DNA of 63,606 nt, counting the filler, from Collodictyon triciliatum (Eukaryota): assembly GCA_043381765.1 (NCBI GenBank). It is 4 parts of 4 records of this genome, joined end to end, with 100 filler letters (N's around TTAATTAATTAA, not from the genome) between each part and the next. Parts side by side here need not be neighbours in the genome. Positions count along the whole stretch, not along the records: positions 29,592 to 38,968 come from JBHJMP010000006.1; 3 more parts are not named here. The stretch is one strand, 5' to 3'. Both the position numbers and the translations under genes were made by a program. Below are positions 35,040-35,845 of this stretch, piece by piece; positions within the stretch are counted from its first letter, which is position 1; each line of letters opens with the position of its first letter. Under the pieces are notes generated by a model. The model was not told where the DNA came from, ran no database searches, and saw nothing but the letters and a program-made list of their open reading frames with translations.

Positions 35040-35220
35040 AATGATTCTTAGATATTCTTATCGCTCTGTAATTTTTCCCGATACAATTTTAATACTTGAA
35101 AGTATTCATTTATTTCATGGACTGGAAGGCATATACCATCTTTCGATTGGTAACCTTGGTTTGTTAGTATTCAAGGCCTCGCCACTTTTTTTCACAAAGG
35201 TCATGTAGTGGTGAAGGGTG
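35040..35220 (-). ncRNA. Candidate Fanzor omegaRNA scaffold (boundaries uncertain)
   Basis: Overlaps and follows the 3' end of the Fanzor frame. Stem AAGGT-TACC-A-ATC-GAAA-GAT-GGTA-TAT-GCCTT at 35157-35126; hairpin AATACT-TTCA-AGTATT at 35106-35091. Confidence 0.35.
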
Positions 35221-35845
35221 CCAGGAATGACCCGACAGCCTGTTTTTTAGAGCGAGGTGTATGTATTTTTTGAAGGATTAAAAGAACTTTCTCGAGTATA
35301 TTATTAGCGCTGTTAAAGCCCCTTGTCAAGAATACACTTTGTTTGCTTTCTAAGCGATTGCATTCTTTACATATGAGACATCTATACACATATTTTTTTG
35401 AATTTCCTTTCGGTGTCATATATTCCAGTTCTTTTTCGCAGTTGCAGCACAACTTGGAAGTTCTAAATTCATCTACGCTAACCGTTTCAAAACGTTTGGA
35501 TAGTGTTTTTCATATTCCTCTTCCGATTGTTGGTATTAAATGCTTCATCAGACATTTTCTGCTCCAGTCTCCATACGCCAGTACAACATCCTTGCCAAAT
35601 GTCTTTTCGATTCGGTCCATAAACAACTGTTCACTTCTATTTGTATTAACGTACTGTCTCCATCTCATCTTTCGAAAAGTTGCGTGTTCATAAAATCTGG
35701 AAATTTTTTATCTGGTATCTTGATTTCATAGATACATATTTTCGAATTTTTTCATAATCAGCCGTGCATGAATTATGTTTACTCAGTTCTGTCTCTAAAT
35801 CGATTAAAGATACTCTTGGTGTCTCAAACTTCTGATTCTCTTCAT
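35201..35845 (-). pseudogene. Degenerate Fanzor (Fanzor1-like, TnpB/RuvC-zinc ribbon) nuclease, C-terminal half
   Basis: IDLETELSKHNSCTADYEKIRKY /frameshift near 35710/ RFYEHATFRKMRWRQY..RSEQLFMDRIEKTFGKDVVLAYGDWS..MKHLIPTIGRGI*KTLSKRF..VDEFRTSKLCCNC...RCLICKEC...TRGFNSANNI. Confidence 0.85.

What the first reader, a model, noticed from the sequence alone, without database searches (positions are those of the whole stretch)
35201..35845. Hidden, decayed Fanzor (eukaryotic RNA-guided TnpB-family nuclease)
Seen: minus-strand translation across a frameshift (about 35710) and a TGA (35510-35512) gives ETELS..NS.T.DY.K, FY...FRKMRW..Y...RSE, FG..VVLAYGDWS (35561-35575), PTIGRG, VDEFRTSKLCCNC (Glu at 35468-35470), a second CxxC and TRGFNSANNI. 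Established: this motif order (GDWS, rearranged catalytic Glu in xDExxTSxxCxxC, zinc ribbon, RDxNAAxNI) characterises Fanzor1-type proteins of eukaryotes and giant viruses. Inference: the RuvC-III Asp is Gly here (GGC at 35318-35320) and the N-terminal half with RuvC-I is missing, so this copy is dead. It has few lesions and no introns in an intron-dense genome, which suggests intact relatives in this organism or a virus that infects it. The ORF track shows only an 83-aa fragment.
Basis: partly seen in the sequence, partly recalled or inferred. Interest (0 to 1): 0.82.

Follow-up and report, generated by a model that had tools for sequence, protein, structure and literature searches.

The report
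Dead Fanzor1 nuclease gene fragment
This is the broken last third of a Fanzor1 gene, a transposon-borne RNA-guided DNA cutter of eukaryotes and giant viruses, lying as a dead relic between two host genes; it is a real but ordinary molecular fossil of a family already described.

Summary
On the minus strand, 35204-35849 encodes about 214 residues of the C-terminal third of a Fanzor1 protein. It is in two frames, with a one-base frameshift in 35700-35711 and an in-frame TGA at 35510-35512. The fragment matches solved Fanzor1 structures (E 3.9e-11). It matches a profile of 14 full-length relatives at E 5e-68, and that profile hits Fanzor1 structures at E 6e-57.

The copy is dead:
- Profile positions 1-402, including RuvC-I, are absent from the whole window.
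- The RuvC-III Asp, invariant in 14 of 14 relatives, is Gly here.
- 6 of 50 family-invariant columns are broken.
- No transposase, terminal repeat or guide-RNA block was found.

Full-length relatives sit in giant-virus contigs inside Tc1/mariner-type transposons with terminal inverted repeats. The window copy belongs to a separate 7-row subclade. In it, it groups with two other decayed fragments, next to intact metagenome copies 67-71% identical to it. Contigs about 90% alike occur in metagenome runs.

This is a new, dead member of a known kind, and interest is low.

The parts
35709..35849 (-). Fanzor1 relic, piece 1 (...VSLIDLETELSKHNSCTADYEKIRKYVSMKSRYQI), matching family profile positions 404-454. 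Homology starts inside the A13 run.
   Evidence: tblastn 35709-35843, 56% to P0002 residues 431-475; hmmsearch E 2.5e-06
35700..35711 (-). One-base frameshift zone (a run of A followed by T) between piece 1 and piece 2
   Evidence: Relatives P0002 and P0116 read straight through here. Related contigs in runs X1 and X2 lack one base at 35708 or 35704.
35204..35707 (-). Fanzor1 relic, piece 2: the RuvC-II region, zinc ribbon, RuvC-III region and C-terminal tail (profile positions 435-607)
   Evidence: E 5.3e-68
35561..35575 (-). YGDWS: the canonical RuvC-II Glu position is occupied by Gly, as in Fanzors
   Evidence: AYGDWSR invariant in 14 of 14; passages of PMC10530073
35510..35512 (-). In-frame TGA at the position of a family-invariant Arg (R541 of P0002)
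35468..35470 (-). Relocated catalytic Glu (VDEFRTSK), retained
   Evidence: E555 invariant
35360..35449 (-). C4 zinc ribbon: CCNC (35438-35449) and CLICKEC (35360-35380), all Cys retained
   Evidence: weak Pfam Cas12f1-like_TNB hit, E 0.0017, below cut-off
35297..35326 (-). RuvC-III motif TRGFNSANNI. The catalytic Asp is replaced by Gly (GGC at 35318-35320).
   Evidence: (D604 invariant in 14 of 14)
35201..35203 (-). Stop codon (TGA) of the relic's reading frame
35845..35857 (.). T13 on the + strand (A13 on the minus strand) at the 5' truncation point of the relic
35954..36565 (-). Neighbour, not part of the relic: a 204-aa open frame of a host membrane-protein gene, ending at a stop about 100 bases upstream of the relic
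   Evidence: no Pfam family; atlas lead only: eukaryotic clusters
34628..34708 (-). Neighbour: tRNA-Ser(UGA) gene followed by a T run, about 500 bases downstream of the relic
   Evidence: (Rfam tRNA 65.2 bits)
34719..34953 (.). Neighbour: a 59-61-base tandem repeat, four copies, between the relic and the tRNA gene

Best explanation
Window 35201-35849 (minus strand) is a dead, 5'-truncated pseudogene fragment of a Fanzor1 gene. Fanzor1 is the eukaryotic and giant-virus homologue of the bacterial RNA-guided nuclease TnpB.

What is shown:
- The fragment keeps only the last third or so of the protein: the RuvC-II region with the relocated Glu, the zinc ribbon, the RuvC-III region and the tail.
- It carries a frameshift, a premature stop and an Asp-to-Gly change at a catalytic residue.
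- It has no RuvC-I, no REC or WED part, no detectable guide-RNA scaffold, no terminal repeat and no transposase.
- It lies in the roughly 1.7-kb gap between a membrane-protein gene and a tRNA-Ser gene followed by a kinesin gene.

What is inferred:
- The parent was a Tc1/mariner-type transposon carrying Fanzor1, like those seen intact in giant-virus contigs.
- This copy was cut down by deletion or incomplete insertion and has since drifted without selection.
- It belongs to a small family of similarly decayed copies in the same or closely related genomes.
- It has no function now. In intact relatives the protein would, with a guide RNA made from the 3' end of the element, cut DNA at sites matching the guide.
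For: - Identity: phmmer against solved structures returns only Fanzor1 chains, at E 3.9e-11, 2.5e-06 and 4.7e-06. The family profile A1 hits the same three at 6e-57, 2e-54 and 1.5e-43 over nearly full length.
- Relatives: 20 longer proteins at E<=0.001 among 285 candidates, best 67% identity over 98% of the query. The representative library holds 1680 at E<=0.001, 444 at <=1e-10 and 10 at <=1e-30.
- Truncation: tblastn with four full-length relatives and hmmsearch of the six-frame window find nothing for residues 1-430 or profile positions 1-402. All other hits have E above 0.2 or above 1.
- Lesions: frameshift, TGA at invariant R541, D604G. In all, 6 of 50 family-invariant columns are broken. 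Intact members break 0-3 in leave-one-out, and 7 of 57 for the divergent P0002. Against the 13 relatives without P0002, the window breaks 13 of 57 and P0002 breaks 7 of 57.
- Parent element: L009 and L010 share 3447 bases at 99.9% identity, bounded by a perfect 35-base inverted repeat, with unlike flanks. The element encodes a DDE_3 plus HTH transposase (E 1.5e-17, over cut-off). A transposase of this kind is next to the Fanzor gene in 23 of 26 viral loci.
- Viral carriers: the two contigs that could be searched, of five asked for, both carry NCLDV capsid genes over cut-off.
- Family of decayed copies: the window groups with the NCBI-sourced fragments P0062 and P0116 (support 97/75; 84% identity over 69 columns). 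P0062 carries a different frameshift.
- Further copies: metagenome runs hold contigs about 90% alike with other indels.
- Position: host genes on both sides.
Against: - No whole genome is held. So copy number, intact copies and element ends in this organism were not seen.
- The mariner-type parent is inferred from relatives that are only 32-47% identical to P0002, the window's closest relative (the tool's best-segment figure). No member of the window's own 7-row subclade has known flanks or a known carrier.
- No transposase remnant (best E 0.16) and no terminal-repeat or 3'-block match (nhmmer best E 0.91, elsewhere in the window) were found here. The link to that element type therefore rests on the nuclease phylogeny alone.
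- The metagenome contigs about 90% alike may come from other organisms.
- P0002, an intact relative, itself breaks 7 of 57 columns that are invariant in the others. So part of the window's divergence belongs to its lineage rather than to decay.
Confidence: 0.85

Rival explanations
1. The fragment is a direct leftover of giant-virus DNA captured into the host chromosome (an endogenous viral fragment). It would not be a copy of a transposon family that lives and multiplies in the host genome.
For: All relatives whose carrier could be checked are viral. There are 26 IMG/VR loci, 16 of them named as giant-virus MAGs. NCLDV capsid genes are on both contigs that could be searched. The window's subclade is sister to a group holding viral copies, within a 24-row clade supported at 98/91. 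Bao and Jurka 2013 argue that viruses spread Fanzor elements and that a Hydra copy probably came from a virus (passages).
Against: Nothing else in the 63.6-kb window resembles the viral element. There is no transposase and no further Fanzor sequence, and host genes abut the relic on both sides. Other NCLDV genes were not searched for in the window. The nearest sequences are other decayed fragments (P0062, P0116) and contigs about 90% alike with different lesions. That pattern is what a multi-copy cellular transposon family would leave. No member of the 7-row subclade has a viral context on record.
Confidence: 0.12
2. The gene is alive. On this reading the frameshift and the TGA are sequencing errors or are bypassed (an intron, recoding, or TGA read as sense), and the N-terminal exons lie elsewhere.
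For: There are only two frame-breaking lesions in about 640 bases. The Cys ligands, the relocated Glu and most invariant residues are kept (44 of 50). The assembly has gaps (ten N runs).
Against: No trace of the first 400 or so residues on either strand within 28-35 kb on either side. The catalytic Asp is Gly. A host open frame on the same strand ends 100 bases upstream. An independent contig in run X2 covers 35627-35834, including the frameshift zone, with one differing base and no gap. So the frameshift is not an error of this one assembly.
Confidence: 0.03
3. The relic has been taken over for a non-coding role, for example as part of the 3' untranslated region of the upstream membrane-protein gene or as a regulatory piece upstream of the tRNA-Ser gene.
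For: It begins about 100 bases after that gene's stop codon on the same strand, and lies about 500 bases upstream of the tRNA gene.
Against: There is no evidence of any such use. Position alone is what any intergenic insertion would show.
Confidence: 0.04

Closest known systems
Fanzor1 nucleases with solved structures: Parasitella parasitica Fz1 (9cf0), Spizellomyces punctatus Fz1 (8gkh), Guillardia theta Fz1 (9cer)
   Same: Same order of motifs in the C-terminal part: FRKMKW..., G(D/N)WS with no Glu at the canonical RuvC-II place, xDE(F/Y)(R/K)TS, CxxC zinc ribbon, RD...N. The fragment aligns to them at E 3.9e-11 to 4.7e-06. Its full-length relatives align over nearly the whole protein at E 6e-57 to 1.5e-43.
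   Different: The window copy has only the last third or so, is frame-broken, and has Gly at the RuvC-III Asp. The relatives' proteins (593-710 aa open frames) are shorter than the solved chains, which are MBP fusions of 1032-1259 residues.
PGv-1 and related Mariner elements carrying Fanzor1 in giant viruses of algae, and HMa-1 in Hydra (Bao and Jurka 2013, PMC3627910; passages read)
   Same: A Tc1/mariner transposase and a Fanzor1 gene lie inside one TIR-bounded element carried by large dsDNA viruses. I saw the same layout in the viral relatives here. A host-genome copy thought to derive from a virus is also described there.
   Different: I could not compare sequences with PGv-1: its sequences are in supplementary files, which are closed, and none was on hand. 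The window copy has lost the transposase and the ends. PGv-1 is described with a GIY-YIG gene as well. In L009 the third ORF is a C2H2 zinc-finger protein.
Bacterial and archaeal TnpB (IS200/IS605, IS607) and Cas12f
   Same: A RuvC nuclease with an inserted zinc ribbon. There are weak hits to Pfam Cas12f1-like_TNB (E 0.0017) and NCBIfam guided_TnpB (E 0.0053) on the zinc-ribbon stretch.
   Different: Both hits are below the curated cut-offs. The catalytic Glu is in the relocated Fanzor position. The partner in the relatives is a DDE transposase with inverted repeats, not a TnpA.

Membership tests
Fanzor1 | Significant sequence similarity to experimentally characterised Fanzor1 proteins | tested here: met
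   Fragment: E 3.9e-11, 2.5e-06 and 4.7e-06 to the three solved Fanzor1 sequences, and to nothing else at E<=1. Family profile: 6e-57, 2e-54 and 1.5e-43.
Fanzor1 | Canonical RuvC-II Glu replaced by an inert residue, with an alternative conserved Glu downstream (Jiang et al. 2023, PMC10530073; passages) | tested here: met
   AYGDWS has Gly at the canonical place, and Glu is kept in VDEFRTSK about 34 residues further on.
Fanzor1 | [TS][TS]xx-C4 zinc finger (OrfB_Zn_ribbon), as in the Bao and Jurka motif | tested here: met
   TSKLCCNC ... CLICKEC; all family-invariant Cys are kept.
Fanzor1 | RuvC-III 'RD' catalytic Asp | tested here: not met
   TRGFNSANNI: Gly (GGC at 35318-35320) where 14 of 14 relatives have Asp.
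Fanzor1 | RuvC-I catalytic Asp (DPGK in this clade) and the N-terminal REC/WED part | tested here: not met
   Absent. There is no match to residues 1-430 or profile positions 1-402 anywhere in the window.
Fanzor1 | Guide (omega/f) RNA encoded at the 3' end of the gene, running to the element's end | tested here: not met
   The viral relatives share a 3' block with a covarying hairpin. An nhmmer profile of it finds nothing downstream of the relic; the best hit is E 0.91, elsewhere. The window's own subclade may use a diverged RNA that I could not model.
Fanzor1 | RNA-guided double-strand DNA cleavage | not testable with these tools
   This is a biochemical property. It is not expected here, given the missing RuvC-I and the changed RuvC-III.
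Tc1/mariner (IS630-like) transposon carrying Fanzor1 | DDE transposase gene next to the Fanzor gene | tested here: not met
   Present in 23 of 26 viral loci, and DDE_3 is over cut-off in both transposases scanned. In the window the best tblastn E is 0.16.
Tc1/mariner (IS630-like) transposon carrying Fanzor1 | Terminal inverted repeats and a target-site duplication | tested here: not met
   A 35-base perfect TIR is seen in L009 and L010. No inverted repeat of that kind brackets the relic, and there is no match to the right-end profile. A target-site duplication was not resolved even in the viral copies.

The most novel reading that the evidence does not exclude
The window copy, the decayed fragments P0062 and P0116, and the intact metagenome proteins P0002, P0211 and P0212 form a distinct Fanzor1 lineage. 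It is a 7-row clade on a long stem, and P0002 has a roughly 33-residue insert that the other 13 aligned relatives lack. On this reading the lineage lives as a multi-copy transposon family in an uncharacterised, intron-rich aquatic protist after transfer from a giant virus. Intact, still active RNA-guided copies would then exist in this genome, and the relic would tie this host lineage to uncultivated giant viruses.
Probability: 0.3. Interest if true: 0.4.

Novelty: new member of a known kind. Interest (0 to 1): 0.22.

Why it matters
The relic itself matters little, because it cannot work. Its modest value is as a marker. It shows that a Fanzor1-bearing element of the kind carried by giant viruses entered this protist lineage. 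It also points to a subclade with intact copies in environmental data that could be mined for compact RNA-guided nucleases, or used to link a host with its viruses. The viral relatives also give a clean picture of a mariner-type Fanzor1 transposon with a conserved, structured 3' block, which is a ready candidate for its guide RNA.

Tried and rejected
- The whole-genome search for full-length copies could not be run: no genome is held.
- Pfam and NCBIfam alone give only sub-threshold hits: Cas12f1-like_TNB E 0.0017, guided_TnpB E 0.0053. They would not have settled the identity.
- Pfam also leaves the full-length relatives P0002 and P0004 without a family. The precomputed label PF26935 could not be looked up in the local library.
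- A single-protein scan of viral contigs with P0002 found nothing: 36 pattern matches, none confirmed. The alignment-based scan then worked.
- The metagenome-contig scan with P0002 gave only one distant locus, L027, at 21% identity. So no DNA of the closest relatives was obtained, and no dN/dS or flank comparison was possible.
- RNAalifold on the MAFFT alignment of the viral 3' blocks found only a trivial 6-pair stem with no compensatory changes. The hairpin became visible only when each sequence was folded alone. I built no covariance model.
- By eye, the sequence after the relic's stop faintly resembles the viral right end. nhmmer gives it no score, so I dropped the idea.
- A possible extension of homology upstream of the A13 run (35856-35950) was not supported.
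- The look-up of sequencing runs was unreachable four times before it answered. No RNA holder was listed, so expression was not examined.
- The parts of the stretch without cover in the laid runs are not interpreted.
- Atlas look-ups gave leads only.
- Structure prediction, complex prediction and fold search were not used. The sequence matches to solved structures made them unnecessary.

Full report
**1. What is in the sequence**

Reading 34800-36600 on the minus strand and listing stop-to-stop frames shows three adjoining open pieces.
- Frame A, 35688-35855, reads ...QKFETPRVSLIDLETELSKHNSCTADYEKIRKYVSMKSRYQIKNFQIL.
- Frame B, 35510-35707, reads KISRFYEHATFRKMRWRQYVNTNRSEQLFMDRIEKTFGKDVVLAYGDWSRKCLMKHLIPTIGRGI.
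- After an in-frame TGA at 35510-35512, the same frame continues over 35201-35509: KTLSKRFETVSVDEFRTSKLCCNC...YRCLICKEC...FLTRGFNSANNI..., to a stop at 35201-35203.

The change of frame must lie in 35700-35711, at a run of A followed by T. Relatives read ...KSR(F/C)QIE(Y/L)S(K/R)FYE... straight through this spot.

**2. Is it more than chance, and what family is it**

- Pfam and NCBIfam give only sub-threshold hits on the zinc-ribbon stretch: Cas12f1-like_TNB E 0.0017, guided_TnpB E 0.0053.
- phmmer of the 169-residue piece (TGA read as X) against all solved structures returns three distinct sequences and nothing else. All three are Fanzor1: Parasitella parasitica at 3.9e-11, Spizellomyces punctatus at 2.5e-06, Guillardia theta at 4.7e-06.
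- The large protein collection holds 20 longer relatives among 285 candidates. Most are 600-660 aa. The best, P0002 (648 aa), is 67% identical over 98% of the query.
- The representative library holds 1680 relatives at E<=0.001, 444 at <=1e-10 and 10 at <=1e-30.
- A profile of 14 full-length relatives (A1) hits the same three solved Fanzor1 proteins at 6e-57, 2e-54 and 1.5e-43, aligned over nearly the whole length.
- That alignment lines up the clade's DPGK (RuvC-I), xNEFRTSK (relocated Glu) and TRDxNSAxNI (RuvC-III) with the corresponding motifs of the solved proteins.
- The same profile, run on the six-frame translation of the whole window, scores 5.3e-68 (profile positions 435-607) and 2.5e-06 (positions 404-454) at the finding. 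It scores nothing better than E 1 anywhere else.

So the family call is secure. The published features are present:
- The loss of the canonical RuvC-II Glu and the alternative Glu downstream, from passages of PMC10530073.
- The D...[TS][TS]xx-C4...RD signature, from passages of PMC3627910.

The exceptions are listed next.

**3. Why this copy is dead**

(a) Only profile positions 404-607 of 637 are present. tblastn with four full-length relatives and the profile search find no trace of the first 400 or so residues, RuvC-I included, on either strand of the 63.6-kb window.

(b) One frameshift and one premature TGA break the frame. The TGA sits at an Arg that is invariant in the family.

(c) The RuvC-III Asp, invariant in 14 of 14 relatives, is Gly.

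(d) Of the 50 family-invariant columns within the span, the window breaks 6: F463I, Q528L, F532L, R541stop, D604G, F627S (P0002 numbering).
- In a leave-one-out control, 13 intact members break 0-3, and the divergent P0002 breaks 7 of 57.
- Against the 13 relatives without P0002, the window breaks 13 of 57 and P0002 breaks 7 of 57.
- Part of the window's divergence therefore belongs to its lineage and part is decay.

(e) An independent contig from a freshwater metagenome run (X2) covers 35627-35834 with one differing base and no gap. The frameshift is therefore not an error peculiar to this assembly.

**4. Surroundings**

- Upstream on the same strand, a 204-aa open frame (35954-36565) of a multi-pass membrane protein ends about 100 bases before the relic. 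It has no Pfam family, and the atlas offers only leads to eukaryotic clusters.
- The relic's homology begins inside an A13 run (T13 on the + strand at 35845-35857).
- Downstream lie about 250 bases of unique sequence, then four copies of a 59-61-base tandem repeat (34719-34953).
- Next is a tRNA-Ser(UGA) gene followed by a T run (34628-34708).
- Then comes a kinesin gene. Its motor motifs (SSAEV..., [63 protein letters not shown]) are spread over at least 7 small exons between about 34232 and 31447.

No inverted repeat brackets it.

**5. What the intact relatives look like**

- An alignment-based scan of IMG/VR gave 26 loci; 35 pattern matches yielded 29 confirmed. Sixteen loci are on contigs named as giant-virus MAGs.
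- Of five contigs I asked to search for the NCLDV capsid family, two were held. Both have it over cut-off.
- 25 of the 26 loci have an unbroken frame of 593-710 codons. L026 is itself a broken copy.
- The printed tails show the RD motif in 23 of those 25; the other two printouts start after it.
- Pairwise comparison of loci defines the mobile unit. L009 and L010 share 8422-11868 (3447 bases, 99.9% identity) and differ outside it. The ends are a perfect 35-base inverted repeat.
- Inside are a 339-aa protein with HTH and DDE_3 domains (E 1.5e-17, 64 bits against a cut-off of 28.6), a small C2H2 zinc-finger ORF on the other strand, and the Fanzor1 gene.
- A transposase of this kind lies beside the Fanzor gene in 23 of 26 viral loci; it is missing in L019, L021 and L026.

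This is the Mariner-plus-Fanzor1 arrangement that Bao and Jurka described for PGv-1 in Phaeocystis globosa virus (passages).

Downstream of every viral Fanzor gene is a conserved non-coding block: ...GTTG(A/T)TTTTAC, a hairpin, a variable spacer, then ...CGGCGTTTTAAATGTyCAAAGGTGTAAAA.
- It ends exactly where related loci diverge, so the last part is the right terminal repeat.
- The hairpin forms in 18 of 19 distinct sequences. Its stems differ on both sides, for example GTGG/CCAC, CTGAC/GTCAG, TGATT/AATCA, TATAC/GTATA and TGGC/GCCA.
- The block lies within the reading frame in some copies (the GQSVDF tail) and after the stop in others. Coding constraint therefore does not explain it.
- By analogy with TnpB and Fanzor systems, I infer that this is the scaffold of the guide RNA and that the guide is read from the flank. 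That is inference, not shown.

**6. Does the window keep any of that**

No.
- The transposase gives no hit (best E 0.16).
- An nhmmer profile of the 3' block scores nothing in 35000-35300. The best hit in the window is E 0.91, at 28743-28773.
- The window's subclade may have a diverged 3' block. I could not obtain DNA of its intact members.

**7. Where the copy sits in the family**

- A careful IQ-TREE run on the C-terminal region used 48 rows.
- Eight long-branch representatives that were in the first 50-row tree were left out: P0064, P0069, P0070, P0073, P0079, P0085, P0096 and P0099.
- The three loci with duplicate sequences (L004, L007, L014) and the fragment L026 were in neither tree.
- The window groups with two NCBI-sourced decayed fragments, P0062 and P0116 (support 97/75; 84% identity to P0062 over 69 columns).
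- Their sister is the intact metagenome trio P0002, P0211 and P0212 (6 rows, 97/90). With P0059 they form a 7-row clade (100/99) on a long stem.
- That clade is sister to a 17-row group that holds the giant-virus copies L001, L002, L003 and L005. Together they make a 24-row clade (98/91).
- The earlier quick tree agrees.
- The tree is unrooted, so no direction of transfer can be read from it.
- P0062 begins in the frame that is the wrong one in the window and then switches, so it carries a different frameshift.
- Laying four metagenome runs shows further short contigs about 90% alike (X1 record 2, X2 record 6, X3 record 13). Two of them lack one base at 35708 or 35704. Contigs identical to the neighbouring host gene are also present (X1, no differences in two 151-base pieces).

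Together these point to several independently decaying copies in this organism or its close kin, which is the signature of a cellular transposon family. They are metagenomes, however, and the carriers are not known.

**8. Verdict**

The thing is a dead, 5'-truncated Fanzor1 pseudogene fragment. It most likely derives from a mariner-type Fanzor1 transposon related to those of giant viruses.

The following are already in print:
- Fanzor1 itself.
- Its rearranged catalytic site.
- Its spread in protists and giant viruses.
- Its capture by mariner elements.
- Virus-derived copies in host genomes.

For these I read passages of PMC10432273, PMC10530073 and PMC3627910. For the other papers I saw only the search listings and the starts of abstracts. 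This is therefore a new, non-functional member of a known kind.

Two things remain open for want of the whole genome and of the closed supplementary files:
- Whether intact copies survive in this organism.
- Whether the lineage arrived by virus.

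Noticed in passing
L001-L025, the roughly 70-170 bases after (or overlapping) the end of each Fanzor1 ORF, e.g. L001:11838-11952 and L009:11767-11867: The giant-virus Mariner-Fanzor1 elements share a conserved non-coding 3' block: GTTG(A/T)TTTTAC, then a hairpin whose stem differs on both sides between sequences (forms in 18 of 19 distinct sequences), then the right terminal repeat ...GGCGTTTTAAATGTyCAAAGGTGTAAAA. 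It is a candidate guide-RNA scaffold for this viral Fanzor1 clade.
   Followed up: partly
L009:8422-11868 and L010:8422-11868: A complete 3447-base transposon, 99.9% identical in two giant-virus contigs with unlike flanks. It has a perfect 35-base terminal inverted repeat and encodes a DDE_3/HTH transposase, a 99-aa C2H2 zinc-finger ORF on the opposite strand, and Fanzor1. It looks recently mobile.
   Followed up: partly
L026:4719-5167: A giant-virus MAG contig carries only a broken piece of the Fanzor1 gene: a 78-codon open stretch matching residues 462-613. So decayed copies also occur inside viral genomes.
   Followed up: no
window 21200-23400: A GC-rich island (GC 0.59 at 22001-23000 against about 0.33 around it) holds an intronless 399-aa open frame at 21532-22728 (+), with long overlapping antisense frames. 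Pfam finds nothing. The atlas points to GT13/GNT-I-like glycosyltransferases (score 0.96, a lead only). Its composition is odd for this genome.
   Followed up: partly
window 34628-34953: A tRNA-Ser(UGA) gene (minus strand) with a downstream T run is immediately preceded by four copies of a 59-61-base AT-rich tandem repeat, each containing a short palindrome.
   Followed up: no
window about 31447-34232, minus strand: A kinesin motor gene is split into at least 7 short exons, with microsatellite-rich introns.
   Followed up: no
window 26676-29543 (minus strand) and 248-2815 (+): There is a class III cyclase-like motif (GDLVNLSARL, recognised from memory) at 29259-29543. It is followed on the same strand by an AAA_16-like ATPase piece (27934-28818; E 0.00028, below cut-off). 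A separate 856-aa open frame on the + strand at 248-2815 has sub-threshold TPR hits. These suggest large signalling proteins of the cyclase/ATPase/TPR type.
   Followed up: no
window 59084-60602 (+): An ornithine/arginine decarboxylase gene in at least two exons (Orn_Arg_deC_N, E 7.5e-41 and 3.7e-22), interrupted by a long T-run intron.
   Followed up: no
P0053 (378 aa, JGI/IMG): A Fanzor1 relative (53% identical to the query) carries the source name '6-pyruvoyl-tetrahydropterin synthase'. That looks like a mis-annotation or a fusion call.
   Followed up: no
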